From an uncultured Candidatus Saccharibacteria bacterium (lineage in GTDB: Bacteria > Patescibacteriota > Minisyncoccia > JACQLN01): a stretch of DNA of 52,938 bases. Below the pieces are notes generated by a model. It was not told the DNA's origin. It saw nothing but the letters and a program-made list of their open reading frames with translations, and searched no databases. Shown piece by piece: positions 17,399 to 34,702 of the stretch (its first letter is position 1; every line of letters starts with the position of its first letter). The stretch lies in the NCBI GenBank assembly GCA_964526375.1, contig CAZGLK010000002.1, positions 1 to 52,938 on the forward strand, written 5' to 3'. The position numbers and the translations under genes were made by a program.

Positions 17399-17579
17399 AA
17401 CAAACCACTTCCTACCAATTACGAATAGTTACTAATCTACCAATCAAGCTTACAAGATTTATTAGTATATTCGTACCGATTGGTAATTAGTAGGGGATAG
17501 ATTATTTTATCAACTAGTTCTAGTGTACCAACAACCGGCAAAAGATACAAACACAACGAGGATTGGTTGATGTAAAACA

Positions 17580-23672: not shown

Positions 23673-25886
23673 ATGGGCAGTGATTTGATCAAAAATGCCA
23701 ACTCGGGACGGGGTCTGTTGAAGTTTATAATCGGCCTTGTTTTGGTGTTGGCGCTGGGGGGGCTGGCCGCCACCCTGGCGGTTTTTATTGTTTTTTCCAG
23801 AAACCTGCCCGACCCCTCCAATTTGGAGGATCGCAGTATTACCCAGTCAACTAAAATCTACGACCGCACTGGCAAAATAACTTTGTACGACATTCACGGC
23901 GAGGAAAAAAGAACCGTCATCCCTTTTAATGAAATTCCCCAAGTGGTTAAAGACGCTACTATTGTGGCCGAAGACCGAGACTTTTATAAGCATCACGGTG
24001 TTGACTTTAAGGCCATTGTTCGGGCGGCTTGGCAAAATATTATCAGTGATTCCCTGCAGGGCGGCTCTACCATTACCCAGCAGTTCGTAAAAAAATCCAT
24101 ATTGTCCGACGAGCGCACATTCACCCGAAAAATAAAAGAAGCCATTCTGGCGCTGGAGCTGGAGCGGCGATATTCCAAAGACGAGATACTTAATTTTTAC
24201 TTAAACCAGATTCCCTACGGTTCTAACGCTTACGGCATTGAGGCCGCGGCTCAAACCTATTTTTCCAAAAAAGCCCCCGATCTTAGCCTGGCCGAAGCGG
24301 CTTTGTTGGCCGCCTTGCCCAAAGCCCCCAGCTATTATTCGCCTTACGGTGAGCGCAAAGCCGAATTATTAAAGCGCCAGCAGACAATTTTGGACAAAAT
24401 GGCCCAGCTTAACTATATTTCCCCGGCCGATTTGGACAAAGCCAAGAAACTGGTTCTTGATTTTTCCAAACCGCAGGCTGGCCTTAAAGCGCCCCACTTT
24501 GTTTTTTACGTGCGCCAGCTGGTGGAAGAAAAATACGGCGAGGAATATGTAGAGCGGGCGGGACTTCGCATTATTACCACACTGGACGCGGATTTGCAGG
24601 ACGCGGCCGGAGAAGCTGTGGCTGAAAGCGCCGAAAGAAATGAGGCTTCGGGCGCGGGCAATTCCGCCTTAGTGGCACTGGATCCAAAGACCGGCCAGAT
24701 TTTGGCTATGGTCGGCTCGCGCGATTTTTTTGGAGACCCCAAGCCCGAGGGCTGCACCCCGGGGGTTGACTGCAAATTTGAAGGGCAGGTTAATGTAACT
24801 ATCCGTTCGCGCCAGCCCGGCTCGGCTTTTAAGCCCATCGTTTACGCCACTGCTTTCAAAAAAGGCTACACCGATAAAACCATTCTCTTTGATGTGCCCA
24901 CCGAGTTTAGTTCCGAGTGCAATTCGTCGGGCTATCCCTTGCGTTCGGGCGCGAAGTGTTATTCGCCCACTAACTACACCGGCAAATATACAGGTGCTCT
25001 GACCGCGCGCTCGGCTTTGGCCAACTCTTTGAACGTGCCTTCGGTTCAAATGCTCTACCTGGCCGGGGTGGACGATTCCATCAACACCGCCGAGGATATG
25101 GGTATAACCACGCTCAAAGACCGTTCCCGTTTCGGCTTGTCGCTGGTTTTGGGCGGCGGCGAAGTAAGATTACTGGAGTTGACTGCGGCCTACGGCGTTT
25201 TTGCTACCGAGGGCGTGCGCCACGCGCCCGAGGCCATATTAAGAATAGAAGACGGCAAAGGCAAAGTTCTGGAAGAGTTTAAGGACGAGCCCGTTCAGGT
25301 TTTAGACAGCGAAGTGACGCGACTAGTCTCCGATGTCTTGTCGGACAATGCCGCCCGCACGCCGGTTTTTGGCTCGCGCGGCGCTTTATATTTTCCCGAC
25401 CGCCCGGTGGCGGCCAAAACCGGAACCACTAACGAGTTTAGAGACGGCTGGGCTATCGGTTACACGCCCTCACTGGTGGCCGGGGTGTGGTCGGGCAACA
25501 ACGACAACACCCCCATGAGGCGCGACCCGGGCGCGGTTACGGCGGCGCCCATTTGGCATGACTTTATGGAAAAAGCTTTTGCCAAGCTGAACTTGCCGGC
25601 TGAAAGTTTTACTCCGCCCGAGCCGCGCGCGATCAGCAGGCCGATTTTGAATGGGGAGTGGTTTATCAACGGCGCCATCCACAGCACTCTCTATTACATT
25701 AACCGCGACGATCCCTTAGGCCCGCCGCCGGCTAATCCCGCCGCCGATCCCCAGTTTGCCAATTGGGAGGCTGGAGTAAGGGCTTGGTACGGTCCGGTGT
25801 TAAAACCGGCCCCGGTTCAGCAACCGCCGGCCGGCGAGGGCACTCCATCTCCCGCGCCCTCTGCACCAATTAACACCCCCGGTTGA
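23673..25886 (+). CDS. Bifunctional class A penicillin-binding protein (PBP1A type)
   Basis: The glycosyltransferase motifs are EDRDFYKHHG and GGSTITQQ. The transpeptidase motifs are SAFKP, SLN and KTGT. There is an N-terminal TM helix. Confidence 0.93.
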   Translation: MGSDLIKNANSGRGLLKFIIGLVLVLALGGLAATLAVFIVFSRNLPDPSNLEDRSITQSTKIYDRTGKITLYDIHGEEKRTVIPFNEIPQVVKDATIVAEDRDFYKHHGVDFKAIVRAAWQNIISDSLQGGSTITQQFVKKSILSDERTFTRKIKEAILALELERRYSKDEILNFYLNQIPYGSNAYGIEAAAQTYFSKKAPDLSLAEAALLAALPKAPSYYSPYGERKAELLKRQQTILDKMAQLNYISPADLDKAKKLVLDFSKPQAGLKAPHFVFYVRQLVEEKYGEEYVERAGLRIITTLDADLQDAAGEAVAESAERNEASGAGNSALVALDPKTGQILAMVGSRDFFGDPKPEGCTPGVDCKFEGQVNVTIRSRQPGSAFKPIVYATAFKKGYTDKTILFDVPTEFSSECNSSGYPLRSGAKCYSPTNYTGKYTGALTARSALANSLNVPSVQMLYLAGVDDSINTAEDMGITTLKDRSRFGLSLVLGGGEVRLLELTAAYGVFATEGVRHAPEAILRIEDGKGKVLEEFKDEPVQVLDSEVTRLVSDVLSDNAARTPVFGSRGALYFPDRPVAAKTGTTNEFRDGWAIGYTPSLVAGVWSGNNDNTPMRRDPGAVTAAPIWHDFMEKAFAKLNLPAESFTPPEPRAISRPILNGEWFINGAIHSTLYYINRDDPLGPPPANPAADPQFANWEAGVRAWYGPVLKPAPVQQPPAGEGTPSPAPSAPINTPG

Positions 25887-25893
25887 TGGAGAG

Positions 25894-25927
25894 GAGGCTT
25901 AGCCTCCAAAAGGAGGCTAAGCCTCCC
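25894..25927. terminator. Tandem self-complementary hairpins after the PBP gene
   Basis: GGAGGCTTAGCCTCC-AAAA-GGAGGCTAAGCCTCC lies immediately after the stop codon. Confidence 0.6.
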
Positions 25928-25970
25928 TGAGCGAAAGTTCTTTAATTTTAAAACAAAGGAGGCACGAATT

Positions 25971-26747
25971 ATGCCGACATTGAACCGCCGAGAGTTTTTA
26001 AGATGGCTGACCTTGGCCGGCGGCGCAGCCGCCTGCCTGCCGGTAGGCATGGCCTGTGGTGACAAATCAACCGGACCGTCTCAATCCGAACCAGACATTA
26101 TGCTGGGGGGGTCGGAGACGGAGCTTGTTGAAACGGCCGGCGGGCAGTTTAACCGCTTGTGGGCTATGGCCCAAAACCCCGGCCGCGAAGTTACCCTGGG
26201 TTTTTCTGAAGGCGGCATGCAAGAAGTTTTGCGAATGAGTTTTGTTAAAAACAAAAGCGCAGAGTATCATCATTTAAGAGTGGTGCGCCAATCAACCGGC
26301 GAGGCGGCCAATTTGCTCTGGGGCCTAGAAAATTTCCTGCCGGCCATTAAACTCGTTGATGACAGCGGCCGGGCGCTGGTTAAAAACGGGCGGGAGATCG
26401 CGGTTGATTTTGCCAGCACCAAAATTGCGGCCCAATCCCAGAGCATTGATCTTTTGGAGCTGGGAGCCAAAGTGGCAATTATTGCTTTGGCCATTTGGCT
26501 GGGCGCGGCCGTGGGCAAAGCCGTGCTGGCGGCCATTGGTTTTATTGCCTTTAACGCCATGGTCTTGGGTCTTGTGGTATTGGCTTTGGGAGCGCTGTCG
26601 CCCCTGCTTGAAAAGATCAGGGATGTTACCGGCTGGCAGGCGGGTGATGTTAAGGCCTTTATGGAGGCTGGTGTGGAGAGATTAAAAGAGTTCTTTGGCG
26701 AAGCCCGGCAGTTGCTGGATACCCTACTAATTACAAATAATTACTAA
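25971..26747 (+). CDS. Hypothetical Tat-signal lipoprotein-like protein with a C-terminal hydrophobic region
   Basis: The N-terminus has a twin-arginine motif NRREFLRWL followed by a lipobox-like GMACG. The C-terminal half is Ala/Gly/Leu-rich and hydrophobic, and the gene is G+C-rich. Confidence 0.65.
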   Translation: MPTLNRREFLRWLTLAGGAAACLPVGMACGDKSTGPSQSEPDIMLGGSETELVETAGGQFNRLWAMAQNPGREVTLGFSEGGMQEVLRMSFVKNKSAEYHHLRVVRQSTGEAANLLWGLENFLPAIKLVDDSGRALVKNGREIAVDFASTKIAAQSQSIDLLELGAKVAIIALAIWLGAAVGKAVLAAIGFIAFNAMVLGLVVLALGALSPLLEKIRDVTGWQAGDVKAFMEAGVERLKEFFGEARQLLDTLLITNNY

Positions 26748-26808
26748 TCTACCAATGAATCAGTAAATTTGTAACTATTAGTAATTGGTAGGGGGTCACC
26801 GTTCTTTC

Positions 26809-26841
26809 AAAACCGCCCCGAGCTTGTCGAGGGGCGGTTTT
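26809..26841. terminator. Hairpin at the left edge of the island, overlapping the fic stop
   Basis: The hairpin is AAAACCGCCCC-GAGCTTGTCGA-GGGGCGGTTTT. It is preceded by GGGGGTCACC and GTTCTTTC, and a near-identical hairpin lies at 34369-34403. Confidence 0.7.
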
Positions 26842-27943
26842 ATATCTTACGGTATCTTGTGGTTCGGCCAAGTCCGAGCCGCTCCACTTTTTTCAAGCGG
26901 AGGAGTTTGTCCAGCGCTTGATTAATGGTTCGACGAGCAACGCCCGTGGCTTTGGAAATCTCTCCGGGTGTGGCCGCGTCGGTTTTTTGTAGATAATTCC
27001 ACACGGCCAATTGTTTTGGCGACAAGAGTTTTTCTATGTTCTCCTTCGAGAGAAGGTCGACCGCCAGTTGCGCCTGTTTCAATAACACGCCGAAAAAGAA
27101 ATCCAACCAGGGCGCAATATCTTCGTGCCCCGATTTAAATGTCTTTTGACTTCTTCGTAAGGCCACATAGTAATCGGGCTTATTATCTTCAACCAACTTC
27201 TCGTGGGGTACATAAGGCACATACAGATATCCCTCTTTGAGTAAAAGAAGATTGGTGAGAACGCGGGACAGCCGGCCGTTGCCATCTTGGAATGGATGAA
27301 TGTTGAGAAATTCAACCAGGAAGTTCCCTATAACAAGGAGAGGGTGATATTTTTTCTCCGAGAGAGCTTCCTGGGTCCATTCCACCAGCTCCTGCATCTC
27401 TTTAGGAACAAGGTATGCCGGCGTGGTGTCAAAAAGAACGCCGACTGATTCTCCAAGCTCGTTAATCATCTGCACCCGGTTCTCTTGCTTCTTGTATTCG
27501 CCGCGGTGGATTTGGTCTTTCTCTACATATTTAAGAAGCTCGCCATGGAAATGTTTTATTGAGCTTTCCGAAAAGCTTAAACTTTTCCCCGCCGCCGCTA
27601 AAGCTTTGGCGGGCGGGCATGAATCAAACACATTCTCCAGAAGCTCGTAGTACCCCCGCACTTCCTGCTTATCGCGATCAGTGAACTTCTGTATGGCAAT
27701 GCCGCGCATCATTTTTTCAATATCTTCATCGGAAAGTTTGGCCCCCTCAATGCGGGTGGACGCCCCCGTAGAGGTAACCAAAGTTGACCGCTTGAGGCGG
27801 CCTAAAACTTGAGGGCTAAGCTGGGCTCCAGCGATCCACTGCCCCTTAAGCTCATCTATTTGTTTGAACTTTGACCAGACCTCGGAGGATAGCCCTTCGA
27901 GCCGTAGGTCAAAACGAGGTTTTTGAGTAACCGGCTCGTCCAT
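26840..27943 (-). CDS. fic: Fic/DOC family protein with a C-terminal winged-helix domain
   Basis: The 367-aa ORF has the Fic motif HPFQDGNGRLSR. Its C-terminus AVWNYLQK...TPGEISKATGVARRTINQALDKL is wHTH-like. Confidence 0.9.
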   Translation of the reverse strand: MDEPVTQKPRFDLRLEGLSSEVWSKFKQIDELKGQWIAGAQLSPQVLGRLKRSTLVTSTGASTRIEGAKLSDEDIEKMMRGIAIQKFTDRDKQEVRGYYELLENVFDSCPPAKALAAAGKSLSFSESSIKHFHGELLKYVEKDQIHRGEYKKQENRVQMINELGESVGVLFDTTPAYLVPKEMQELVEWTQEALSEKKYHPLLVIGNFLVEFLNIHPFQDGNGRLSRVLTNLLLLKEGYLYVPYVPHEKLVEDNKPDYYVALRRSQKTFKSGHEDIAPWLDFFFGVLLKQAQLAVDLLSKENIEKLLSPKQLAVWNYLQKTDAATPGEISKATGVARRTINQALDKLLRLKKVERLGLGRTTRYRKI

Positions 27944-28069
27944 ATGATCTTAATAATCTTACATTTCAAGTATAGAAGATTATGCAAGATTAATCAATGG
28001 CGTTCTGTGGGCAAAAGCCCTATCTTACATATATGCAGGAAAGCCCACAAATAAAGGACTTTTTTGTGC

Positions 28070-28098
28070 TTGACAAGCATACCATGATTTGCTATAAT
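28070..28098 (+). promoter_or_regulatory. Consensus sigma70-type promoter P1
   Basis: TTGACA lies at 28070-28075 and TATAAT at 28093-28098, with a spacer of exactly 17 nt. Confidence 0.7.
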
Positions 28099-28218
28099 GG
28101 AACCATACGATAGAAATGCTGGTTGGGGCTGTTTAGCAGGGGTGCCTGCACCGAGCTAGTCGAGATGCCGGACCCAAACCCCGAAAGCTGGCATAGTAAT
28201 CCTTCACAGGGCAGGGTC

Positions 28219-28247
28219 TTGACAAACAGATATGCTTGGTATATAAT
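28219..28247 (+). promoter_or_regulatory. Consensus sigma70-type promoter P2
   Basis: TTGACA lies at 28219-28224 and TATAAT at 28242-28247, with a 17-nt spacer. Confidence 0.7.
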
Positions 28248-28253
28248 GGAGGT

Positions 28254-28426
28254 GTAAGCTGAAAGTACCTAATAAAACATAATAAAGTCTAAGCTTCTAG
28301 AGGAGAGAGTCTGGGGCTGGGATATTAAGGTATATTAAGGTGCAGGTTATATATAGCCCCAAACAACAACCCAAAAAGCGGTTGAAAGATTCTTTCCTTT
28401 AAGAAGGCGTCTTTCAACCGCTTTTT
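28254..28426 (+). ncRNA. Candidate sRNA of about 170 nt, bounded by P2 and an intrinsic terminator
   Basis: There is no credible ORF. An internal hairpin GGGGCT...AGCCCC is present. The terminator stem is AGCGGTTGAAAG (28377-28388) with CTTTCAACCGCT (28411-28422), followed by TTTT. Confidence 0.5.
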
Positions 28427-28697
28427 AGATATCTGGCGAGGAGAAAGATGGAGGAGAGAATTAAGCCGTGGTGGCGAGGCTTCGGGTTTAGCCCAAGTCT
28501 GGCTACTAAACACGTTTTGAGAATATTGGCGGAAGCGGAAATGCAACCCGCAACCATAGGGCAAAATTCCGCGGCGCAAGTTCTCATCAATTCTTCTCTA
28601 TCTTTCTCCCCAACCACAAGCGAAGGGAGAGTTAAATTCCTGATGTTCTTTTCAAATCTTTTCCGCGGCACCGACGTATTCGGGCAGGGGAAAAATT

Positions 28698-29129
28698 ATG
28701 AAGGCCACAAGTTTCTTGTTTCTCGCGGCGCTCTTCGTCAGTGCAATAGGCTGCACCGACACCCGGCCTTTTTACAGGTCGGTTCTGCAGGATAAAGAAG
28801 TCGTTGTGAAGCTCACTGAGGCAATTTGGCTGCATGGCGATACTACGTGCGCCATCACCAAGCTGGCCCGTCAGCTGGATGCCGAAAGACGAGCAGACGT
28901 CCGGAGGCCGTATTCGCCCGTAAACGCGGATCGTATGCTTTGGGAGGAAATCCATAAGGTTGTCATAGACAATTGGTATTCTTCCACGGATACCATGCGT
29001 GCAGAAGTACGGCGGACCTTGGACCTTTGGCTTTCTCCCGAGAAATCAAGTAAGGCCGAGGTGTGGGTGATGCCTGTAACGGTCCATTACCGCTTTGACC
29101 CCGATCAGGTTTATCTGACAAAGAAGTAA
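28698..29129 (+). CDS. Hypothetical lipoprotein
   Basis: The 143-aa ORF has a signal peptide with the lipobox FVSAIGC. A GGGGAAAAATT ribosome-binding region precedes the ATG. Confidence 0.7.
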   Translation: MKATSFLFLAALFVSAIGCTDTRPFYRSVLQDKEVVVKLTEAIWLHGDTTCAITKLARQLDAERRADVRRPYSPVNADRMLWEEIHKVVIDNWYSSTDTMRAEVRRTLDLWLSPEKSSKAEVWVMPVTVHYRFDPDQVYLTKK

Positions 29130-29172
29130 AGGATTGGGAGGCTCTGCGAACAAAAAAATTCGCATTCCTCCC

Positions 29173-29235
29173 TCTGTCTCCCGATGTATGTCGGGACTGA
29201 TGAGCCCTTTGATAGTTACCGCAGGGCGAAACAGA
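29173..29235 (+). ncRNA. Type III hammerhead self-cleaving ribozyme
   Basis: Stem III pairs TCTGT (29173-29177) with ACAGA (29231-29235). The cleavage triplet is GUC, with C17 at 29178. Stem I is TCCCGA-TGTATG-TCGGGA (29179-29196). The core CTGATGA lies at 29197-29203. Stem II is GCCCT-14 nt-AGGGC (29204-29227), and GAAA lies at 29228-29231. Confidence 0.85.
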
Positions 29236-29279
29236 AAATTGCTTGCACCGAGCTAGCCGATATTCTTTGAAAATCAATA

Positions 29280-29537
29280 TTAGCGGTAAATGTCTTTGCG
29301 GTGGTCAATGTCAAAAAAGATCGCTGTTTCTGCGTGCTGCAAATAAAAAAGCACCCGGAAATTGCGAGTGACCCTGAAAGAAAGAGCATGAGGGAGGATT
29401 TTAACTTTTTTGATGTGCAGCCGCGGGTCGCACCAGTTCTTTTGAAACGAACTCTTTTGAGTAAAATAGAGCCGCTGAATTTCCTTAGGCAGTTTGTTTA
29501 GTGACCTTTCAAAATCATCGGTCTGGATTATCTCCAT
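29280..29537 (-). CDS. RelE/ParE-superfamily toxin
   Basis: The 85-aa basic ORF overlaps the upstream small ORF by 10 nt. Its C-terminus FRVLFYLQHAETAIFFDIDHRKDIY resembles the RelE/YafQ type. Confidence 0.7.
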   Translation of the reverse strand: MEIIQTDDFERSLNKLPKEIQRLYFTQKSSFQKNWCDPRLHIKKVKILPHALSFRVTRNFRVLFYLQHAETAIFFDIDHRKDIYR

Positions 29538-29737
29538 ACGGAAGACACCGGCGGATATTTCTTTATGGCTTTTTCATAGGATCGTTTGATCCGTTGCGGG
29601 TGAGCATAGCCGACCAGATCTTCTTGAGGGAAAAGAAATTCAACCTCGCTTCTTAGCAGGCGGAGTTCCTCAATGACCGTTCCCAAGAGCTCGTTAGTGG
29701 CCGCAGCAGAGGTCTTATCTTTTGTGAGTATTTCCAT
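29528..29737 (-). CDS. Cognate antitoxin (family not recognised)
   Basis: The 69-aa ORF lies immediately upstream of the toxin and overlaps it. Confidence 0.55.
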   Translation of the reverse strand: MEILTKDKTSAAATNELLGTVIEELRLLRSEVEFLFPQEDLVGYAHPQRIKRSYEKAIKKYPPVSSVWR

Positions 29738-29782
29738 TAACCATGATTATAGTTTATCACCAAAGGTATGTCAATTTTCTTT

Positions 29783-29861
29783 CTAACCCACCCCTCAACA
29801 ACACGCGGATACACGCGGATCAAAACGCGGATACACGCGGATAGATTGAAGGGTGAGTTAG
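29783..29861. repeat. Hairpin element with an ACGCGGAT word loop (unit A head)
   Basis: CTAACCCACCCCTCAA (29783-29798) pairs with TTGAAGGGTGAGTTAG (29846-29861). The loop holds four ACGCGGAT words. Confidence 0.75.
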
Positions 29862-29939
29862 GGAGAGAAGGACTCTTCCGAAGGCGACGCGTGCCTATAA
29901 AGTGCGAGCCATGTAAACACCTGAAAGGAGGTGAAAAGC

Positions 29940-30197
29940 ATGGCAAGTAAGGATCTTTGGGTGGAGATTAAACTCCACCCGGAGGCCGAGCCGGTTTGGG
30001 CTCGGAGAGAGGTCCCGCCCGCAGTTGTCCAGGAGTTCCAAAGGATCCTGGATACTGGGGGTGGTGAGCACATCTCCTTTCCCTATCCCGACGATTCTGA
30101 AAGAATCGTTTCGGAGGTGGGGGGGCGAGATGTGGTTCTCTCTGTGCCCTCTCGGGCACGGGGAGGGAACTACGTGATCCATTTTTTGGGTCACTGA
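29940..30197 (+). CDS. Small acidic hypothetical protein (unit A payload, 85 aa)
   Basis: The ATG lies 9 nt after AAAGGAGGTGA, a near-perfect SD. The leader is conserved with unit B. I recognise no family. Confidence 0.6.
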   Translation: MASKDLWVEIKLHPEAEPVWARREVPPAVVQEFQRILDTGGGEHISFPYPDDSERIVSEVGGRDVVLSVPSRARGGNYVIHFLGH

Positions 30198-30234
30198 TTC
30201 CCGTTCCCGAAACCCGCCCCCACCGCGGTAATGT

Positions 30235-30466
30235 GGGGAGATGGCGCAGGTTGACGCCATACTGAAGCGGTCTTGATTGACGCGATACTAACCCGTGCCT
30301 GATGGCAGGCAGCCCGTGGAAACACGACGGGTATACGGGGAATAAGTGTCAGTAGAGACCGCCAGTCCAGACGAACAGCAGGACAACACTCCTTGCTGTT
30401 CAGGATTCAACCACAGGGCCGCCAAAGAGCTCGGCCCTAATCCCGAAGCACTCGGGAAAGCTCAAG
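30235..30466 (+). repeat. 232-nt structured element, copy 1 (candidate unclassified ncRNA)
   Basis: By eye it is identical to 31722-31953. It contains a 3-way junction (ACCCGT/ACGGGT closing GCCTG-ATGG-CAGGC and CGTG-GAAA-CACG). Further hairpins are GAACAGCA../..TGCTGTTC, GGGCCG/CGGCCC and CCCGA/TCGGG. Confidence 0.7.
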
Positions 30467-30641
30467 ATTTTGGGAGAGTTGCCAGAGATGACAGCTCTCC
30501 CCCTTATCCGAGTTCATCGTCTCTTTCCGCGTAAATCAGCGTTCTAATCTGCGTTGATCCGCGTAAAGTAAGGGTGGATTCAGAGGAGGGAAAAACATTC
30601 TCATATTCTGCAGAATGTTAGAATGTTGGTTCTTTGAGAAA

Positions 30642-30869
30642 TTAAGCAGGAGTTAGAACAACTTCAACGGGAAGAGGAACGGCCGTATGTTTCGCCTTCA
30701 TTCGGTGGGCAAAATTAAGCACCGTAAAACCCTTAACCTTGCGAGTTTTGGGGTCAAGGCGAAGAATCACATCGTTGGCGGCCTCTTCGCTGCGATCTTT
30801 TGCGGATGGCTTGCCTTGAGAGATGTAGAGTATGTCGGCCTCTTGGTCGTAGTAATAATAGAGTTGCAT
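30642..30869 (-). CDS. DUF2283-type small protein (antitoxin-like)
   Basis: The 75-aa ORF contains YYYDQEADILYISQG ... VKGFTVLNF, typical of DUF2283. Confidence 0.7.
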   Translation of the reverse strand: MQLYYYYDQEADILYISQGKPSAKDRSEEAANDVILRLDPKTRKVKGFTVLNFAHRMKAKHTAVPLPVEVVLTPA

Positions 30870-30873
30870 AATT

Positions 30874-31146
30874 TTAATGTTTGATTTTAGAGGTTAAGTA
30901 TATGGTAAGTATAAAGTTGCGTTGATTGGTTTTCACTACTACCACAAGATGTTTCCTCTGGCTGATTGGACTATAGCATATTTGCACCCTTGGATCAAAT
31001 TTCGATTGGCTAATAATACTGGGTTTGGCAAGTACTTGCTTAATCCGTTTCAGATAGCGTCTAACTTCTGGGTGGAATTTAAGAACATGCTCAACCCTTT
31101 CGTTAGTCAGCTCAACTTCTCCAAACGGCGAATCAAACTTCTTCAT
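30874..31146 (-). CDS. Putative toxin partner of DUF2283 (DUF4258 / RelE-barnase-like)
   Basis: The ATG at 31146 (MKKFDSPFGEV) gives a 90-aa protein. It contains ERVEHVLKFHPEV and LVVVVKTNQRNFILTIY, and lies 4 nt upstream of the DUF2283 gene. Confidence 0.55.
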   Translation of the reverse strand: MKKFDSPFGEVELTNERVEHVLKFHPEVRRYLKRIKQVLAKPSIISQSKFDPRVQICYSPISQRKHLVVVVKTNQRNFILTIYLTSKIKH

Positions 31147-31190
31147 TTTGATATTATACCTCAACGCTAATCCGTAGCCAATTTTCTTCT

Positions 31191-31292
31191 CTAACCCACC
31201 CCTCAACAATACGCGGATTAACCCCTCGACTTCGCTCAGGGCAAGCGCGGACTAAACGCGGATCTACGCGGATAGATTGAAGGGTGAGTTAG
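31191..31292. repeat. Hairpin element with an ACGCGGAT word loop (unit B head)
   Basis: The arms are the same as at 29783-29861 (CTAACCCACCCCTCAA / TTGAAGGGTGAGTTAG), but the loop is longer. Confidence 0.75.
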
Positions 31293-31377
31293 GGAGAGAA
31301 ATGCTCTTCCTATCAAAGGCGACGCGTGCCTATATAAAGTGCGAGCCATGTAAAACACCTGAAAGGAGGTGAAAGAT

Positions 31378-31686
31378 ATGGCAAAGGCATTTTCTTTCGT
31401 CCTTTACACCCAAGCCGGCGGGTACGACGGCTATGTGGTGGTTCAGGATGAGAGGACGGCAGACGCCACAGACGATTTGATTCGATCTGTGGTGGATCCC
31501 GAAGGGGAAATTTCTTTCGTCGGGGGAGTCCATCTGACTCCTTTTGGCGAGGGAGAACCCCAATCCCTCTGGCAGACAATCTGTCAGGAAGAAGAGGGGT
31601 TCCTTTTCGGAGGTGATTTGGCCGCAATGCTCGCCCGGACGCCAGCAGAGAAGCTGGTGAACCGGGTGGAGTACTACGGTCATTAA
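31378..31686 (+). CDS. Small highly acidic hypothetical protein (unit B payload, 102 aa)
   Basis: The ATG follows the same AAAGGAGGTGA leader. The protein is unrelated to the unit A payload, and both end in GH. Confidence 0.6.
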   Translation: MAKAFSFVLYTQAGGYDGYVVVQDERTADATDDLIRSVVDPEGEISFVGGVHLTPFGEGEPQSLWQTICQEEEGFLFGGDLAAMLARTPAEKLVNRVEYYGH

Positions 31687-31721
31687 GCCGCCCCGCCCTA
31701 ACCCTCCCCCTAGGGTCACAA

Positions 31722-31953
31722 GGGGAGATGGCGCAGGTTGACGCCATACTGAAGCGGTCTTGATTGACGCGATACTAACCCGTGCCTGATGGCAGGCAGC
31801 CCGTGGAAACACGACGGGTATACGGGGAATAAGTGTCAGTAGAGACCGCCAGTCCAGACGAACAGCAGGACAACACTCCTTGCTGTTCAGGATTCAACCA
31901 CAGGGCCGCCAAAGAGCTCGGCCCTAATCCCGAAGCACTCGGGAAAGCTCAAG
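31722..31953 (+). repeat. 232-nt structured element, copy 2
   Basis: By eye it is identical to 30235-30466. Confidence 0.7.
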
Positions 31954-32094
31954 TTTTGGGGAGAGGGTCTCAAAAAAGAGAATCTCTCCCCACCTTATCC
32001 GAGTTCATCATCCGCGTTTATCCGTTTGCCAATCTGCGTATATCCGCGATGTGTATGGTGGATTCAGAGGAGGGAGGTGTTCTTTGAAAAAAAA

Positions 32095-32307
32095 TTACAA
32101 ATCTTCTTCTGAAACGCCAGCTTGTTTTAGGATTGAATGAAGCGTGCCCTTGGGCAGGTCTTTGGTGTGGTAGGGTACGGATGCTCGTTTCTTCTTTTGC
32201 GGGTGATAAAAAATATAATGGCTTCCAGTAGCATAGTCTAACTGAAAGCCAAGACGTTTGAGAATAACAATAACCTTTTTGGGTGTAAGAGACGGGATCT
32301 TAGGCAT
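32095..32307 (-). CDS. hicA: HicA toxin
   Basis: The 70-aa ORF contains KKVIVILKRLGFQLDYATGSHYIF and LPKGTLHSILKQAG. Confidence 0.88.
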   Translation of the reverse strand: MPKIPSLTPKKVIVILKRLGFQLDYATGSHYIFYHPQKKKRASVPYHTKDLPKGTLHSILKQAGVSEEDL

Positions 32308-32557
32308 GGGCGGAAGCCTTTTCGCGGACAGGTTCCTTTATCTGAATAGAAGCAATGAATGTTTCTTCGTCTGAAGGAATTAGTTCACGATGTTTTCTAA
32401 GGCTCGCGATATATCCTTCGACGGCATCCCGCGCCATATTTTTGGCTTCGGTAAGGTTTTTCCCGTAACTAACGCAACCTGGCAAGGCCGGAACAAAAAC
32501 CGTAAACCCGCCCTCCGGTTCCGGACGAAGAATGATATTGTAATTGAGTATTTTCAT
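32300..32557 (-). CDS. hicB: HicB antitoxin
   Basis: The ATG at 32557 gives MKILNYNIILRPEPEGGFTVFVPALPGCVSYG. The gene overlaps hicA by 8 nt, and the longer track ORF (to 32869) is a spurious extension. Confidence 0.85.
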   Translation of the reverse strand: MKILNYNIILRPEPEGGFTVFVPALPGCVSYGKNLTEAKNMARDAVEGYIASLRKHRELIPSDEETFIASIQIKEPVREKASAHA

Positions 32558-32762
32558 ACACCAATATGGTATCAAACAAAATCCAATGTTGCAAATTTTT
32601 CCCCTAACCCACCCCTCAACAACGCGCGCCTGCCTGCGGCAGGCAGGGATATACGCGGTGTGATCTCTCACAAGATAGTTTAGTAAGTTGTTTTGTGAGA
32701 GGTCGCACGGTGCGGCTTCTGTAAAGACTTGGGGCCAATCCCAAGCAGGAAAGGAGGGTGCT

Positions 32763-33350
32763 ATGAAAATAGTGCTCTGCGGGCCGCCAAGGTCCGGCAA
32801 GTCCTGCTTGAGGGAAGGCCTCAAGCAGGCGGTGCGGCGTATTCCTGGAGCGCCGTATCCGTATGTCATAACCGGGTGCCCTGACGGGGAGGGCGCCTGG
32901 TTCCAGGAGACTGTGAACTTGGATCCCGAATTGGCGGCGCGGTGTAAGGCCGCCTATAAATCCAAGTTCACAACGGAATTCGTGCGGAGGGTCGCGGATT
33001 CCGTAAAAAGTTGTAACCTTCCTTTGACGCTCGTGGACATTGGTGGCATCCCGAGCGCTGAGAACGAGGAGATTTGCTCCTCGGCCACCCACGCCATTTT
33101 GCTGGCGGGCGATCTTGATCGTCTGCCCGAGTGGCGCGAGTTCTGCGGGAAGCTGGGTCTCCGCATCATCGCGGAGATCCATAGCGATTACCGTGGAACT
33201 GAAGACACCGCTCCTTCGCTCGGCGAGGATGGTGTCTGGAGTGGATCGGTTCATTACCTCGAAAGAGGCGAGCCGGTCCACGAGCGCCCGACAGTCAAGG
33301 CGCTCGCCGAGACCCTCGCGCAGATGGCTACTGCAGCAGAGGAGAACTAA
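32763..33350 (+). CDS. P-loop NTPase (possible Csx3-associated ATPase module)
   Basis: The ATG at 32763 follows GGAAAGGAGGG. Walker A is GPPRSGKS, and LTLVDIGG is Walker B/DxxG-like. The protein is 195 aa. Confidence 0.6.
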   Translation: MKIVLCGPPRSGKSCLREGLKQAVRRIPGAPYPYVITGCPDGEGAWFQETVNLDPELAARCKAAYKSKFTTEFVRRVADSVKSCNLPLTLVDIGGIPSAENEEICSSATHAILLAGDLDRLPEWREFCGKLGLRIIAEIHSDYRGTEDTAPSLGEDGVWSGSVHYLERGEPVHERPTVKALAETLAQMATAAEEN

Positions 33351-33486
33351 AACAGCCGCTCGGCGCGTTCCTTGCCAGCGCGTCCGGGTTTCCAAAAAAC
33401 AAAGGCTCAAAAAAAAGAGCCGCCTCTCCCAAGCTTGCCATAGTTTGGGTGACAAGAGGGGTCTCCTTGAGAAGAAAGGAGGAGAT

Positions 33487-33795
33487 ATGGCGGCGTATAA
33501 AATTTTTTTGGAGGGCGGAGACGTCCTCCGGGTCGGGTTCGGCGACCCGGCCCAGAACGACGCGATCTGCCGGGACGCCGCCCGGCAGCTGGAGGAGCTT
33601 GTCTCCTCCGGAGCCCTGGCCGGTGGCTCAGTTATTAAAATAAACGGCCCCGCCTCCTTGCCCGTGGCGGTGGTGTTCGCTCACGCGATTGGCCACCTCT
33701 ACGAGGCGGTGGCGGTGTTCGACCCCAAGCTGGGGAAGTATGTCGTGGCGGTTAGCCACGGTGTCCAGCTCGGGGTCGGCGACCTGATCGACTAG
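33487..33795 (+). CDS. csx3: Csx3/Crn3-like protein (putative cyclic oligoadenylate ring nuclease)
   Basis: The ATG follows GAAAGGAGGAG and the protein is 102 aa. IKINGPASLPVAVVFAHAIGHLYEAVAVFDPKLGKYVVAVSHG...GDLI matches, from memory, the Csx3 pattern GRGPIWL..H..H..VAVYDPRLG..VVVQSH..GDVI. Confidence 0.55.
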   Translation: MAAYKIFLEGGDVLRVGFGDPAQNDAICRDAARQLEELVSSGALAGGSVIKINGPASLPVAVVFAHAIGHLYEAVAVFDPKLGKYVVAVSHGVQLGVGDLID

Positions 33796-33860
33796 CCATC
33801 GGTCAGGAAAAAACTCCCGAGTGGCGCTCGGGGCATTCACCTGAAAGGAGGTGAAAAAAC

Positions 33861-33995
33861 ATGGAGGAGTTCGGCCGCTTTGTCGCGGCCATCCCGCCAC
33901 GGGACGTTTTGGCCCTGTTGGTGGGGTGGGCGGGCCTGCTCCTTTGCGTCGCTGACGCAGTGGAGCGGCTCCTTAACGAGAAATTTCCTCGTTAA
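33861..33995 (+). CDS. Possible 44-aa hydrophobic peptide (third payload behind the shared SD)
   Basis: CACCTGAAAGGAGGTGAAAA lies at 33839-33858 and the ATG at 33861. My translation gives MEEFGRFVAAIPPRDVLALLVGWAGLLLCVADAVERLLNEKFPR. Confidence 0.4.
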   Translation: MEEFGRFVAAIPPRDVLALLVGWAGLLLCVADAVERLLNEKFPR

Positions 33996-34368
33996 AAGGT
34001 CCCCGCCCTCGTCAAATCCCCGGTCACGGAGCCGGGGTTGCCCGAAAGTCCACGGGCGTAAAAGTATGGGTAAAAGGCCAGGGGGTTGCCTGACGCGCAC
34101 TCGTCAAAAACCCTCTCTGTTCTCCGCCCAAGGCGGACTGACGAGCTCCCACTTTCGCCAAGAAGCTTCAGCGGGCAGGCAAAAGAGTGGAAACAGACCG
34201 CCGTGGTGGGCGGACGAGAATTGGGGAAATCTTTTATGCCCCCCTGATTCGCAAAAACACCAGTCCTTATAAAGCTGTGAGCTGGAAAAATCTCTCTCCT
34301 TGGTTTTGTTGAAGGTTCTTTGAGAATTTTTAACGAAACAATCCAGTTCGCAGCTTTATGGGGGCTAC

Positions 34369-34403
34369 CAAAACCGCCCCGATGTTATGTCGGGGCGGTT
34401 TTG
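34369..34403. terminator. Hairpin at the right edge of the island
   Basis: The hairpin is CAAAACCGCCCC-GATGTTATGTC-GGGGCGGTTTTG, preceded by GGGGGCTACC. It is nearly the same as 26791-26841. Confidence 0.7.
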
Positions 34404-34432
34404 TTGTATATTTGTTGTATAATGGGACTATT

Positions 34433-34702
34433 ATGGAAAAAGAAACAATCGGCTTGGAGTCCGAAGTGCATCCCCCGGAGCCAAACATCAGAGATACCAA
34501 TTTTATACAGAGGGACTTGATTACCCGTTCCGGCCAAAATCCGCTGGAATGGATAAAGGAAAAGTCCGATGAGATTCAGAAACTGGTTAATTCGCGGCCA
34601 GAGCTTTTTTACGGCTATGCCGAACTAAATGAAGAGGAAAAAGTCCTGCGGTTGAAATCGGTGGAAGCAGAATTAAACCAGTTTCTCAAAGAAGCTATCT
34701 AG
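34433..34702 (+). CDS. Hypothetical small protein
   Basis: The ATG at 34433 (MEKETIG) has a TATAAT at 34419-34424 upstream. The track start at 34358 lies within the hairpin. Confidence 0.55.
   Translation: MEKETIGLESEVHPPEPNIRDTNFIQRDLITRSGQNPLEWIKEKSDEIQKLVNSRPELFYGYAELNEEEKVLRLKSVEAELNQFLKEAI

What the first reader, a model, noticed from the sequence alone, without database searches (positions are those of the whole stretch)
26791..34403. G+C-rich cassette-like island bounded by near-identical hairpins, alternating TA modules with payload-plus-RNA units
Between the Tat-lipoprotein gene and ruvB the sequence changes character. It is visibly more G+C-rich and lacks the family A/B palindromes seen elsewhere. 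The minus strand carries only Fic and three type II TA pairs (RelE-like, DUF2283 pair, HicAB). These alternate with plus-strand units consisting of a leader, a small ORF and a structured non-coding element. The left edge reads GGGGGTCACC-GTTCTTTC-AAAACCGCCCCGAGCTTGTCGAGGGGCGGTTTT (26791-26841). The right edge reads GGGGGCTACC-AAAACCGCCCCGATGTTATGTCGGGGCGGTTTT (34360-34402). These look like direct repeats differing by an 8-nt insert, as expected for att-like duplication or repeated use of one site. A 12-nt motif RTTCTTTSARAA recurs at 26801, 29262, 30629, 32079 and 34315. Each occurrence lies at the 3' end of a plus-strand unit. All but the last also lie 1-28 nt beyond the stop codon of the next minus-strand gene. 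The layout recalls sedentary integron arrays or defence/anti-defence hotspots, but no integrase, transposase or attC-type sites are visible. Caveat: the 7-mer GTTCTTT is common in this window, including inside genes, and weaker look-alikes sit at 25937, 39448 and 48052. Motif significance therefore needs statistics.
Basis: partly seen in the sequence, partly recalled or inferred. Interest (0 to 1): 0.85.

Follow-up and report, generated by a model that had tools for sequence, protein, structure and literature searches.

The report
Ribozyme-and-toxin mosaic around split Csx3 genes
The stretch is a real mosaic island in a Patescibacteria (CPR) genome, made of small self-contained gene units ending in structured RNAs (one a hammerhead ribozyme) that alternate with toxin-antitoxin operons, and it is an expanded copy of a locus shared by many such bacteria rather than an integron-like cassette array.

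Summary
The coordinates, edge hairpins, gene identities and 12-mer are as described. The 12-mer occurs 6 times against 0.15 expected.

The integron/att reading is not supported. No recombinase lies in the 53 kb, there are no attC-type sites, and the units carry their own promoters.

The island is an expanded version of a locus conserved across Patescibacteria, built around a split 'AAA-Csx3' pair. The P-loop NTPase has more than 1000 homologues, and the best 120 listed are 72-88% identical.

Shared non-coding parts recur in other genomes:
- strong consensus promoters
- structured leaders
- canonical type III hammerhead ribozymes (window 29173-29235 and three other genomes; 10 of 16 pairs covary)
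- a conserved two-hairpin 3' module
- the 12-mer, which always lies just 3' of a helix

The 12-mer also follows ordinary genes such as the PBP and Tat-lipoprotein genes. I therefore read it as a strand-specific 3'-end or intercistronic signal. This reading is inferred.

Minus-strand TA operons inside the locus recur in a second genome, where HicB is 68% identical. The plus-strand small ORFs tested are orphans.

Relatives with the same PilB-RuvB...PBP synteny lack the island. The function of the RNAs and of the NTPase-Csx3 pair remains unknown.

The parts
26717..26800 (+). AT-rich palindrome of a generic intergenic family.
   Evidence: The other family copies are at 11446-11532 and 17411-17499.
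26801..26812 (+). 12-mer copy GTTCTTTCAAAA, directly 3' of the palindrome.
26808..26841 (.). Left edge hairpin, a bidirectional intrinsic-terminator-like structure between the convergent Tat-lipoprotein and Fic genes.
   Evidence: (family D7).
26840..27943 (-). Fic-domain protein with a C-terminal winged HTH (SoFic-like). It contains the motif HPFQDGNGRLSR.
   Evidence: Pfam Fic 57.7 bits plus HTH hits. PADLOC SoFic 3e-40 over residues 50-361.
28070..28098 (+). Promoter P1, TTGACA-17-TATAAT, 12 of 12 matches.
   Evidence: A tandem P1/P2 arrangement and the following sequence ATACGAT.GAA are also seen in L151.
28219..28247 (+). Promoter P2, TTGACA-17-TATAAT, 12 of 12 matches.
   Evidence: The RNA downstream is homologous to L151 3697-4222 (nhmmer E 2e-8).
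28248..28432 (+). Leader RNA ending in an intrinsic-terminator-like hairpin (28373-28426).
   Evidence: pair I1. A promoter, leader and terminator in the same order are seen in L140, L143, L151 and L154. The sequences are too divergent to align.
28440..28656 (+). Structured RNA domain closed by a purine/pyrimidine helix (28440-28457 with 28592-28609). It ends in the 12-mer variant GTTCTTTTCAAA (28645).
   Evidence: (pair I6).
28698..29129 (+). Orphan lipoprotein ORF of 143 aa (unit U1 payload).
   Evidence: Lipobox ...SAIGC in the translation. No homologue among 5.8 billion proteins.
29173..29235 (+). Type III hammerhead ribozyme. The predicted cleavage is after C29178. It is preceded by the hairpin GGGAGG...CCTCCC (about 29136-29172).
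   Evidence: Rfam RF00008 37.6 bits, E 2e-5, below the gathering score of 48.5. Own model R1 scores 67 bits. Covariation with three other genomes. The same hairpin-plus-hammerhead layout occurs in phage contigs.
29262..29273 (+). 12-mer copy ATTCTTTGAAAA at the end of U1.
29280..29774 (-). RelE/ParE-like toxin (29280-29537), antitoxin (29528-29737) and a 12/12 promoter (29774-29746).
   Evidence: A 32% identical homologue sits in the same relative position in L154.
29776..29869 (.). U2 leader hairpin: CTAACCCACCCCTCAAC, then 4 x ACGCGGAT, then TTGAAGGGTGAGTTAG.
   Evidence: z about -7.5 on both strands..
29918..30197 (+). Shared SD hairpin (29918-29936) and orphan orf85 (29940-30197).
   Evidence: In some searches the only hits are repeat-inflated matches to low-complexity proteins.
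30198..30640 (+). U2 structured 3' RNA. It contains the 244-nt block 30235-30478, the two-hairpin module end, the palindrome 30594-30627 and the 12-mer 30629-30640.
   Evidence: Folding z = -8.85.. The stretch 30429-30515 is homologous to L151 6217-6301 (E 4e-5).
30642..31181 (-). DUF2283 gene (30642-30869), DUF4258-like gene (30874-31146) and promoter (31181-31153).
31184..32090 (+). Unit U3: leader hairpin, SD hairpin 31356-31374, orphan orf102 31378-31686, 3' RNA (block 31722-31965) and 12-mer 32079-32090.
32095..32557 (-). HicA (32095-32307) and HicB (32300-32557).
   Evidence: HicB is 68% identical to the HicB in L154.
32594..32715 (+). Half leader (left arm only) plus two hairpins upstream of the NTPase gene.
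32763..33350 (+). P-loop NTPase, the 'AAA' half of Csx3-AAA.
   Evidence: PADLOC Csx3-AAA 8e-58. 1061 homologues at E <= 1e-10. The AF2 model has pLDDT 88, and its nearest folds are SIMIBI NTPases with TM 0.45-0.6.
33487..33795 (+). Csx3-family protein.
   Evidence: Pfam PF09620 24.1 bits, above the 21-bit cut-off. PADLOC 2e-24.
33838..33995 (+). Shared SD hairpin and a 44-aa hydrophobic ORF.
   Evidence: Small hydrophobic ORFs follow Csx3 in L143 and L147.
34117..34196 (+). Degenerate hammerhead. It has a 32-nt insert in loop II, U at position 11.1 and G at position 13, and is probably inactive.
   Evidence: Model R1 22.7 bits, E 1.7e-5. Homologous to L143 7397-7483. The surrounding RNA has z = -0.6.
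34315..34326 (+). 12-mer copy GTTCTTTGAGAA at the tip of a 17-bp hairpin.
34369..34403 (.). Right edge hairpin, terminator-like.

Best explanation
**What it is.** The stretch is a lineage-specific, expanded copy of an RNA-rich locus found in many Patescibacteria. The locus is built around a split 'AAA-Csx3' pair: a SIMIBI-type P-loop NTPase and a Csx3 protein.

**Anatomy (shown).**
- A divergent HTH-bearing gene, here a SoFic-like Fic-wHTH protein, faces two tandem consensus promoters.
- The plus strand then carries self-contained expression units.
- Each unit has a structured leader, a shared SD hairpin, a small orphan ORF (or the NTPase-Csx3 pair) and a structured 3' region.
- That 3' region ends in a closing helix followed by the U-rich motif GUUCUUU(G/C)ARAA.
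- In unit 1 the closing structure is a canonical type III hammerhead ribozyme.
- In unit 4 it is a decayed hammerhead.
- In units 2 and 3 it is a conserved two-hairpin module at the end of a ~400-nt RNA.
- Autonomous type II TA operons with their own consensus promoters sit on the opposite strand, converging on each unit's end.

**How it works (inferred).** The helix plus 12-mer acts as a strand-specific 3'-end or intercistronic signal, by termination or processing. The hammerhead cuts the transcript about 49 nt after the ORF. The mRNA is left ending in a protective hairpin with a 2',3'-cyclic phosphate. The RNA that would otherwise run antisense into the convergent TA operon is thereby uncoupled.

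**How it arose (inferred).** The near-identical blocks around unrelated ORFs come from duplication and homologous recombination or gene conversion between units, which swaps payloads between conserved flanks. They do not come from site-specific cassette capture.

**Role.** The content (SoFic, TA pairs, Csx3 pair) suggests a defence or addiction island. That role is inferred from annotation only.
For: **The locus is conserved.**
- The NTPase has 1061 homologues at E <= 1e-10. The best 120 listed are 72-88% identical, and those named by their source are Patescibacteria.
- Csx3 is adjacent in every context fetched.
- Non-coding homology to other loci (all from nhmmer):
  - window 28214-28617 matches L151 3697-4222, E 2e-8.
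  - the U2 RNA matches L151, E 4e-5.
  - the U4 RNA matches L143, E 5e-4.
  - the U2 leader matches L140, E 7.5e-3.

**Hammerheads.**
- Canonical hammerheads occur in four genomes.
- All 16 pairs are formed in every sequence, and 10 show compensatory changes.
- A decayed copy lies in U4.

**The 12-mer.**
- It is non-random.
- It lies on the same strand as the NTPase-Csx3 genes.
- It sits immediately 3' of hammerhead stem III in L143, and after an A5 spacer in L154.
- It sits 3' of the covarying H2 hairpin in U3, L151, L140 and L147.
- It sits 3' of the hairpins after the PBP and Tat-lipoprotein genes.

**Promoters.** Three perfect 12/12 promoters are present.

**TA operons in a second genome.** L154 carries RelE/ParE-like, HicB and PIN operons on the opposite strand, interleaved with a hammerhead, the same SD sequence and an ORF with no significant Pfam match.

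**Orphan payloads.**

**Absence from syntenic relatives.**

**Context in the literature and in phages.**
- Prokaryotic hammerheads flanking small non-conserved ORFs are a known but unexplained context (PMC6155905).
- The same hairpin-then-hammerhead layout occurs in intergenic regions of phage contigs.
Against: - There are no expression data. Termination, processing and self-cleavage are all untested.
- The hammerhead scores below Rfam's gathering threshold (37.6 against 48.5 bits).
- The 12-mer is a poor canonical U-tract. It is sometimes 5-35 nt from the helix (U1, 28645, 25937). It also occurs in 5' UTRs with no preceding gene (37898, 48052), so a different role such as protein binding or a translation element is possible.
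- The non-coding homology rests on few sequences and on E-values computed against a small database.
- The leaders could not be aligned.
- The two edge hairpins remain an unexplained specific direct repeat.
- No conspecific genomes were found, so gain or loss of modules was not observed. All Logan contigs carrying island proteins are identical to the window.
Confidence: 0.55

Rival explanations
1. An integron-like or other site-specific cassette array. Modules would be captured one by one at a recurring core site, either the 12-mer or the CTAACCC...GTTAGGG hairpin. The island would have been inserted with duplication of an att-like hairpin.
For: - The two edge hairpins are a specific direct repeat, unique in the 53 kb.
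- Minus-strand genes start 1-27 nt after the 12-mer.
- The leader hairpins begin with YYCTAAC and end with GTTAGGG, which resembles the R''/R' boxes.
- Orphan small ORFs and TA cassettes are typical of sedentary integrons (own knowledge).
- The island is absent from syntenic relatives.
Against: - No recombinase was seen in the window.
- Hairpins with AAC...GTT exist at only 2 of about 8 junctions. They form a continuous 17-bp stem without the extrahelical bases or central spacer of attC.
- Modules have their own strong promoters and alternate in orientation.
- The 12-mer is part of RNA 3' modules in other genomes. It also follows ordinary genes.
- The same TA/unit interleaving is inherited in L154.
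- GGGGGTCACC belongs to a generic palindrome family.
Confidence: 0.1
2. Units U2 and U3 are non-autonomous mobile elements (MITE-like, carrying a payload). They would be bounded by ~65-bp terminal inverted repeats that each hold four CGCGGAT-type binding sites, and mobilised in trans by a transposase encoded elsewhere.
For: - Leader and trailer are inverted repeats (nhmmer E about 6e-6).
- The whole unit folds as a panhandle (z = -14).
- A CGCGGAT x4 array also sits in frame inside a tsaE-like gene at 39812-39863 and in the L140 leader. This suggests the array spreads.
- U2 and U3 share a 244-nt block that is 99% identical.
Against: - No target-site duplications flank the units.
- No transposase was found.
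- The only copies are tandem neighbours inside one locus.
- In L151, L140 and L147 the homologous 3' module lacks the CGCGGAT array. The array is therefore an insertion into the loop of hairpin H2, not a unit terminus.
- The payload boundaries coincide with the start codon and about 35 nt after the stop codon, not with the inverted repeats.
Confidence: 0.1
3. The long structured RNAs are the functional core. They would be ribozymes, sensors or RNP partners of the NTPase-Csx3 pair, for instance a new self-cleaving class in the 244-nt block occupying the hammerhead's position. The small ORFs and TA operons would be accessory.
For: - The U2 RNA folds far better than shuffled controls (z = -8.85).
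- It occupies the same position as the hammerhead in U1.
- New ribozyme classes were previously discovered next to hammerhead-associated small ORFs (PMC6155905).
- No Rfam family matches it.
- RNA modules are conserved next to NTPase-Csx3 genes in several genomes.
- The NTPase is unusually conserved.
Against: - Only the 3' ~90 nt of the 244-nt-block RNA has detectable homologues, so there is no covariation support for the block itself.
- The U4 RNA is not more stable than chance.
- Csx3 is known as a cyclic-oligoadenylate ring nuclease (PMC8136920), and the fold search points to SIMIBI-type NTPases rather than RNA-end-modifying enzymes.
- Nothing was tested biochemically.
Confidence: 0.2

Closest known systems
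Prokaryotic or phage hammerhead ribozymes flanking small non-conserved ORFs (de la Pena et al. 2017 review, PMC6155905; Rfam RF00008)
   Same: - A canonical type III core, with three covarying helices.
- An intergenic position directly after a small orphan ORF.
- The same upstream hairpin GGGAGG...CCTCCC abutting stem III as in IMG/VR phage contigs.
   Different: - The setting here is chromosomal, in a Patescibacteria genome.
- The ribozyme is tied to an NTPase-Csx3 pair and to convergent TA operons.
- It is followed by the lineage-specific GUUCUUUGA motif, which the phage copies lack.
- One copy is decayed, and in two units another structured RNA takes its place.
Csx3-AAA / AAA-Csx3 accessory proteins of type III CRISPR-Cas (Shah et al. 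2019, clusters 35 and 67; PMC6546367)
   Same: Both halves match the PADLOC models built from these families, at 8e-58 and 2e-24.
   Different: - The pair is split into two ORFs.
- No cas genes or CRISPR array were seen in 53 kb.
- It is widespread and 72-88% conserved in Patescibacteria.
- It is embedded in structured RNAs and ribozymes.
Defence islands and TA-rich hotspots; 'moron'-type autonomous promoter-gene-terminator units of prophages
   Same: - A cluster of SoFic, RelE/ParE, HicAB and DUF4258/DUF2283 genes.
- Each module carries its own promoter and 3' end.
- The island is absent from syntenic relatives.
   Different: - Strict alternation of strands.
- Shared 5' and 3' RNA modules between units.
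- The architecture is conserved across genomes rather than assembled ad hoc.
Sedentary chromosomal integron cassette arrays
   Same: - Small orphan ORFs.
- Interspersed TA cassettes with their own promoters.
- Highly similar repeats between modules.
   Different: - No IntI.
- No attC structure.
- The repeats are 5' and 3' expression modules.
- Orientation alternates (see the membership test).

Membership tests
Integron / attC cassette array | An IntI-type tyrosine recombinase next to the array. | tested here: not met
   No recombinase or transposase domain in the island ORFs or in ten other window ORFs scanned against Pfam. None was recognisable in the ORF list of the 53-kb window. The rest of the genome was not available.
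Integron / attC cassette array | An attC site (R''-L''...L'-R', RYYYAAC/GTTRRRY, extrahelical bases, unpaired central spacer) at the 3' end of every cassette. | tested here: not met
   Only two complete hairpins (29776-29869, 31184-31300) begin with YYCTAAC and end with GTTAGGG. Their bottom strand forms an uninterrupted 17-bp stem. The third copy has only the left arm, and the other junctions have none. No attC covariance model was available.
Integron / attC cassette array | Promoterless cassettes in one orientation, read from a common promoter. | tested here: not met
   The strands alternate, and 12/12 promoters lie at 28070, 28219 and 29774(-).
Integron / attC cassette array | Cassette content varies between close relatives. 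| tested here: inconclusive
   Relatives at 77-82% RuvB identity lack the whole island. No conspecific genome was found, and all Logan contigs are identical to the window.
Hammerhead ribozyme, type III (RF00008) | The conserved core C3-U4-G5-A6-N7-G8-A9 ... G12-A13-A14, and a NUH cleavage triplet. | tested here: met
   29173-29235 reads ...CUGUC|U..., CUGAUGA, GAAA.
Hammerhead ribozyme, type III (RF00008) | Three helices around the core, supported by covariation. | tested here: met
   In four genomes all 16 pairs are formed, 10 of them with changes on both sides. No shuffle out of 500 reaches this.
Hammerhead ribozyme, type III (RF00008) | A score at or above Rfam's gathering threshold. | tested here: not met
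   37.6 bits against 48.5 (E 2e-5). L143 scores 43.3 bits. The 14-nt loop II costs score.
Hammerhead ribozyme, type III (RF00008) | Self-cleavage. | not testable with these tools
   This needs in vitro transcription or RNA-end mapping.
Csx3-AAA / AAA-Csx3 type III CRISPR accessory proteins | A Csx3 domain and a P-loop domain homologous to the family. | tested here: met
   PADLOC PDLC01045 at 8e-58 and 1.8e-24. Pfam PF09620 24.1 bits, above the 21-bit cut-off.
Csx3-AAA / AAA-Csx3 type III CRISPR accessory proteins | The two domains fused in one polypeptide. | tested here: not met
   Two ORFs, 32763-33350 and 33487-33795, lie 136 nt apart. They are also separate in all contexts fetched.
Csx3-AAA / AAA-Csx3 type III CRISPR accessory proteins | Encoded next to a type III CRISPR-Cas module. 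| tested here: not met
   No CRISPR repeat family and no cas-like ORF were seen in the window. None lies in the flanks of L140-L156 according to the precomputed Pfam lists.
Type II toxin-antitoxin modules | A toxin or antitoxin family domain. | tested here: met
   HicA 72.8, HicB 36.8 and DUF2283 35.5 bits, all above their cut-offs. The RelE/ParE-like and DUF4258-like toxins are below the Pfam cut-offs (17 bits each); the former has a PHROG RelE-like match at 1e-7.
Type II toxin-antitoxin modules | A compact two-gene operon with its own promoter. | tested here: met
   The gene pairs overlap or abut. Promoters lie at 29774(-) with 12/12 matches and at 31181(-) with 10/12.
SoFic (Fic-domain defence protein) | The Fic motif HxFx(D/E)GNGRxxR and a full-length match to the SoFic model. 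| tested here: met
   HPFQDGNGRLSR is in the translation. PADLOC SoFic 3e-40 over residues 50-361. The NCBIfam equivalog cut-off is not reached (45.6 against 550 bits). Defence activity was not tested.
MITE / TIR transposon | Terminal inverted repeats, target-site duplication and dispersed copies. | tested here: inconclusive
   Inverted repeats are present. No target-site duplication was seen. The only copies are tandem neighbours, plus a CGCGGAT array inside the tsaE-like ORF.

The most novel reading that the evidence does not exclude
The NTPase-Csx3 pair and its surrounding RNAs form a previously unrecognised, Patescibacteria-wide RNA-centred system. Ribozyme-processed, modular transcripts would work with the two proteins and with antisense-embedded TA operons, for example as an RNA-controlled abortive-infection or addiction device. 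These transcripts include hammerheads, the conserved two-hairpin module, the GUUCUUUGA signal, and possibly a new catalytic or sensing RNA in the 244-nt block. This would give hammerhead-flanked small orphan ORFs a concrete biological role.
Probability: 0.2. Interest if true: 0.85.

Novelty: new variant of a known kind. Interest (0 to 1): 0.6.

Why it matters
- The biological role of bacterial hammerhead ribozymes that flank small, non-conserved ORFs is an acknowledged open question (PMC6155905).
- This locus ties such ribozymes to a very conserved, uncharacterised protein pair in CPR bacteria, a split Csx3-AAA without CRISPR.
- It also ties them to a recurring 3' RNA module and motif, and to convergent toxin-antitoxin operons.
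- That gives a defined set of sequences to test for cleavage, RNA ends and antisense control of TA expression.
- It gives a comparative handle of more than 1000 homologous loci.
- It is also a caution: repeat-bounded 'cassette' arrays can be conserved expression modules rather than recombination products.

Tried and rejected
1. **Rfam scans.** The whole window at gathering thresholds gave nothing. A permissive scan of the island gave only the hammerhead. Twister, twister-sister, pistol, hatchet and the large-RNA families did not match the 244-nt RNA.
2. **Metagenome scan with the 17-mer CTAACCCACCCCTCAAC.** It gave 47 hits. None showed any other similarity to the island, so I read them as chance matches. 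The viral scan with the longer 19-mer CTAACCCACCCCTCAACAA gave none. Viral hits to the SD hairpin were not followed up and are probably generic.
3. **U2 RNA against the phage collection.** No match.
4. **NTPase against viral contigs.** No relatives.
5. **Polynucleotide-kinase idea.** I considered that the NTPase might act on hammerhead 5'-OH ends. The fold search points instead to SIMIBI GTPases/ATPases such as GPN-loop, FtsY and MinD. PDB sequence searches were uninformative.
6. **Hammerhead in the U2/U3 RNA (CUGAUGG...GGAAAC).** Rejected, because model R1 finds nothing there.
7. **Riboswitch-like conserved leader.** The promoter, leader and terminator order is shared, but the five leaders do not align. 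I make no claim.
8. **The 12-mer as a promoter -35 box.** This fits only L143. The window copies have no -10 box.
9. **The 12-mer as a start for mini-ORFs.** The TTG is not conserved (G/A), and the resulting ORF lengths are erratic.
10. **The 12-mer as an extension of hammerhead stem III.** The pairing is weak, with a conserved A·C mismatch.
11. **MAFFT alignment of the module-end element.** It misplaced the 5' arms, so the pairs were read by hand.
12. **Literature searches.** Searches for Csx3 with Patescibacteria, hammerhead with CPR, and the motif itself found nothing relevant.

Full report
**What is there**

The window is a chromosomal stretch of a Patescibacteria (CPR) genome. By my reading of the ORF list it carries dnaA, dnaN, ruvC, a PBP1A gene, ruvB, pilB, polA, uvrB and ruvA. 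It also carries T4SS-like genes. The closest RuvB proteins, at 77-82% identity, come from Parcubacteria, Yanofskybacteria and other Patescibacteria MAGs.

The minus strand of 26791-34403 carries:
- a Fic protein with a C-terminal winged HTH (PADLOC SoFic 3e-40);
- a RelE/ParE-like pair;
- a DUF4258-like/DUF2283 pair;
- HicAB.

The plus strand carries four units.

- **U1 (27960-29273)**
  - two perfect TTGACA-17-TATAAT promoters at 28070 and 28219;
  - a leader ending in a terminator-like hairpin at 28373-28426;
  - a helix-closed RNA domain;
  - an orphan lipoprotein ORF;
  - a type III hammerhead ribozyme at 29173-29235.
- **U2 and U3**
  - These share a leader hairpin: CTAACCCACCCCTCAAC, then 4 x ACGCGGAT, then its complement.
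  - They share an identical SD hairpin.
  - They share a 3' RNA whose 244-nt core is 99% identical.
  - Their ORFs, of 85 and 102 aa, are unrelated to each other.
  - Neither ORF has any real homologue.
- **U4**
  - It keeps only the left arm of the leader.
  - It encodes a P-loop NTPase, a Csx3 protein and a 44-aa hydrophobic ORF behind the same SD hairpin.
  - It ends in an RNA that contains a decayed hammerhead.

**Checking the observation**

- **Edges and 12-mer.**
  - The 12-mer occurs 6 times against 0.15 expected.
  - The hairpin arm is exact only at the two edges.
- **G+C.** The excess is modest at 0.508 against 0.469. It lies only in the plus-strand units, and the TA modules are AT-richer than average.
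- **Repeat families.** The AT-rich intergenic repeat families of the window are absent from the island.
- **Correction to the left edge.** 'GGGGGTCACC' is the tail of one of those generic palindromes, and the 12-mer follows it directly.

**Relatives**

- Four MAGs keep PilB-RuvB...PBP1A.
- Between ruvB and the PBP gene they have a single ~900-aa secreted protein.
- They carry no island gene, no Tat-lipoprotein gene and no orf89.
- The island is therefore accessory at this position. No empty site and no conspecific genome were found.
- Exact-protein look-ups returned only short contigs identical to the window.

**The turning point: the NTPase**

- The P-loop protein has 1061 homologues at E <= 1e-10.
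- The best 120 listed are 72-88% identical, and those named by their source are Patescibacteria.
- In every context fetched it is followed or preceded by a Csx3 gene.
- In the five genomes whose upstream region was examined it is preceded by one of two things. One is 1-2 kb with few or no called genes. The other is small genes, often next to a divergent TrmB-type HTH gene.
- Both proteins match PADLOC's 'Csx3-AAA' model, which describes a type III CRISPR accessory family (Shah et al. 2019, PMC6546367).
- Here the two domains are split into separate ORFs, and no cas genes are nearby.
- An AlphaFold model (pLDDT 88) resembles SIMIBI-class NTPases only distantly.

**Shared non-coding apparatus**

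- **Sequence homology (nhmmer).**
  - Window 28214-28617 matches L151 upstream of its NTPase gene (E 2e-8).
  - The U2 RNA matches the RNA after L151's Csx3 (E 4e-5).
  - The U4 RNA matches L143 (E 5e-4).
  - The U2 leader matches L140, which also has 4 x CGCGGA (E 7.5e-3; sequence).
- **Hammerheads.**
  - Canonical type III hammerheads lie in L143 (after a small ORF downstream of Csx3), L151 and L154.
  - Together with the window's copy, all 16 pairs are formed in every sequence.
  - Ten of those pairs show compensatory changes.
  - The window's U4 element scores 22.7 bits with my model. It has a 32-nt insert and two core-adjacent substitutions, so it is probably dead.
- **The 12-mer in other genomes.**
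  - In L143 it (GTTCTTTGACAA) starts at the last pair of hammerhead stem III.
  - In L154 it follows after five A residues.
- **A second kind of unit end** occurs in U2, U3, L151, L140 and L147. Its parts, in order, are:
  - hairpin H1 (GGGAGAG...CUCUCCC);
  - the linker CCUUAUCC;
  - hairpin H2 (GAGUUCAUC...GGUGGAUUC), which covaries: L151 has GAGCCCGCAA/UUUGCGGGUUC and L147 has GAGUUUAUC/GGUAAAUUC;
  - AGAGGAGGGAG;
  - the 12-mer.

**What the 12-mer is**

- In the window, the 12-mer or its GTTCTTT-plus-A-rich variants lie just 3' of a helix at:
  - the end of each of the four units;
  - after the Tat-lipoprotein gene;
  - after the PBP gene, at 25937.
- GTTCTTT followed by an A-rich run also sits in the 5' UTRs of ordinary genes at 37898 and 48052, and at L007 901.
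- It is always on the strand of the unit it closes.
- This pattern fits an RNA-level or otherwise strand-specific 3'-end or intercistronic signal of this lineage.
- It does not fit a recombination core site.
- Its exact role is inferred, not shown. It could be a terminator U-tract, a processing site or a protein-binding site.

**TA operons are part of the inherited architecture**

In L154 the interval between the TrmB gene and the NTPase gene holds, in order:
- a consensus-like promoter;
- RNA modules ending in GTTCTT(T)AAAA;
- a RelE/ParE-like pair on the opposite strand, starting 5 nt after such a motif, as in the window;
- HicB, 68% identical to the window's;
- a plus-strand hammerhead followed by the motif;
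- a PIN pair on the opposite strand;
- a unit with the same SD (GAAAGGAGGTGAAAAG-ATGG), a 116-aa ORF with no significant Pfam match, a structured 3' RNA and the motif.

Alternation of TA operons with payload-plus-RNA units is thus a conserved layout.

**How it most likely works**

- **Shown:**
  - autonomous units with strong promoters on both strands, arranged convergently;
  - conserved closing structures, including an apparently intact ribozyme;
  - a motif at each plus-strand unit end.
- **Inferred:**
  - The closing helix plus motif ends or processes the plus-strand RNA.
  - The hammerhead cleaves after C29178. The lipoprotein mRNA is left ending in the hairpin at about 29136-29172.
  - This detaches the RNA that would otherwise be antisense to the RelE/ParE operon.
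- **Phage parallel:** the same hairpin-then-hammerhead arrangement occurs between genes in phage contigs, without the 12-mer.
- **Origin of the repeats (inferred):** the 99% identical block around unrelated ORFs has similarity boundaries at the start codon and about 35 nt after the stop codon. This points to duplication and homologous exchange between conserved flanks.
- **Role (from annotation only):** a defence or addiction role is suggested by SoFic, the TA pairs and Csx3.

**What remains unexplained**

- the specific 34-nt direct repeat at the two edges;
- the 24-nt direct repeat that brackets P2...hammerhead (28143 and 29240);
- the CGCGGAT x4 arrays, which occur:
  - in the leaders;
  - inverted in the H2 loops of U2 and U3;
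  - in frame inside a tsaE-like gene at 39812-39863;
- the function of the 244-nt RNA, whose unit folds with z = -8.9 (3' RNA) to -14 (whole unit);
- the function of the very conserved NTPase-Csx3 pair.

**Novelty**

The literature library holds no paper linking Csx3 with Patescibacteria, or hammerheads with CPR. Hammerheads flanking small non-conserved ORFs are a known, unexplained context (PMC6155905).

I rate this a new variant of known kinds: a ribozyme-associated small-ORF locus inside a TA/defence island. A minority reading is that it is a genuinely new RNA-centred system.

Noticed in passing
window 39800-39870: A CGCGGAT x4 array (GATGCGCGGATTGACGCGGATCAAAGACGGATATACGCGGAT), preceded by CTCTCTGTCTT, lies in frame inside a tsaE-like ORF. 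By my comparison with E. coli YjeE from memory, it adds about 16 aa between the SPTF and HxDxYRL motifs. The same array type sits in the island's leaders and trailers, so it looks like a spreading mini-repeat.
   Followed up: partly
window 28143-28166 and 29240-29263: A 24-nt direct repeat, TGCYTGCACCGAGCTAGYCGAKAT (21 of 24 identical), brackets the stretch from promoter P2 through the lipoprotein ORF and the hammerhead. It may be a trace of how unit U1 was inserted or duplicated.
   Followed up: no
window 25886-25975: After the PBP1A stop codon, a perfect 15-bp hairpin is followed by CTGAGCGAAA-GTTCTTTAATTTT and then the SD of the Tat-lipoprotein gene. This is a 12-mer look-alike at an ordinary gene end. 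The Tat-lipoprotein gene and orf89 are also absent from syntenic relatives, so the accessory region may span 25890-34700.
   Followed up: partly
L158, L170, L173 and other IMG/VR contigs (L158-L176): Nineteen viral contigs carry hammerheads with the same stem II (GUCC-GAAA-GGAC). Several share the window's layout of a GGGAGG...CCTCCC hairpin abutting stem III, placed between genes.
   Followed up: partly
L151 6475-7880: In this genome a second, paralogous P-loop ORF (MAKIAIGGPPHSGKT...) follows the NTPase-Csx3 pair, and the hammerhead lies after the next ORF. The locus can therefore hold two NTPase paralogues.
   Followed up: no
window 32763-33350 and P0003-P0121: The 195-aa NTPase is 72-88% identical across the best 120 of 1061 homologous 90%-identity clusters. 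This is unusually high conservation for a gene sitting among TA and defence genes. Invariant motifs include GPPxSGKSC and PDGEGxWFQ.
   Followed up: partly
window 1-52938 (e.g. 19-91, 9585-9657, 37742-37814, 42611-42683; 1421-1465, 40058-40102, 52086-52130): Several families of AT-rich intergenic repeats and palindromes recur between housekeeping genes. None lies inside the island.
   Followed up: no
window 41247-41318: A 12-nt tandem repeat (TGACAATGACGA, about 6 copies) lies inside the polA-like ORF.
   Followed up: no
window 9667-14037: A T4SS-like cluster, with a TraG/VirB4-type P-loop protein (Pfam 96 bits) and a T4SS pilin, lies upstream of dnaA. Three small ORFs at 220-585, 1512-1883 and 8040-8426 look, by my reading only, like four-helix-bundle '23S rRNA intervening sequence' proteins.
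   Followed up: partly
window 29746-29774, 31153-31181, 32547-32575 (minus strand): The TA promoters abut the conserved CTAACCC arm, and the start codons lie only 6-8 nt after the -10 box. The TA mRNAs would therefore be leaderless or nearly so.
   Followed up: no
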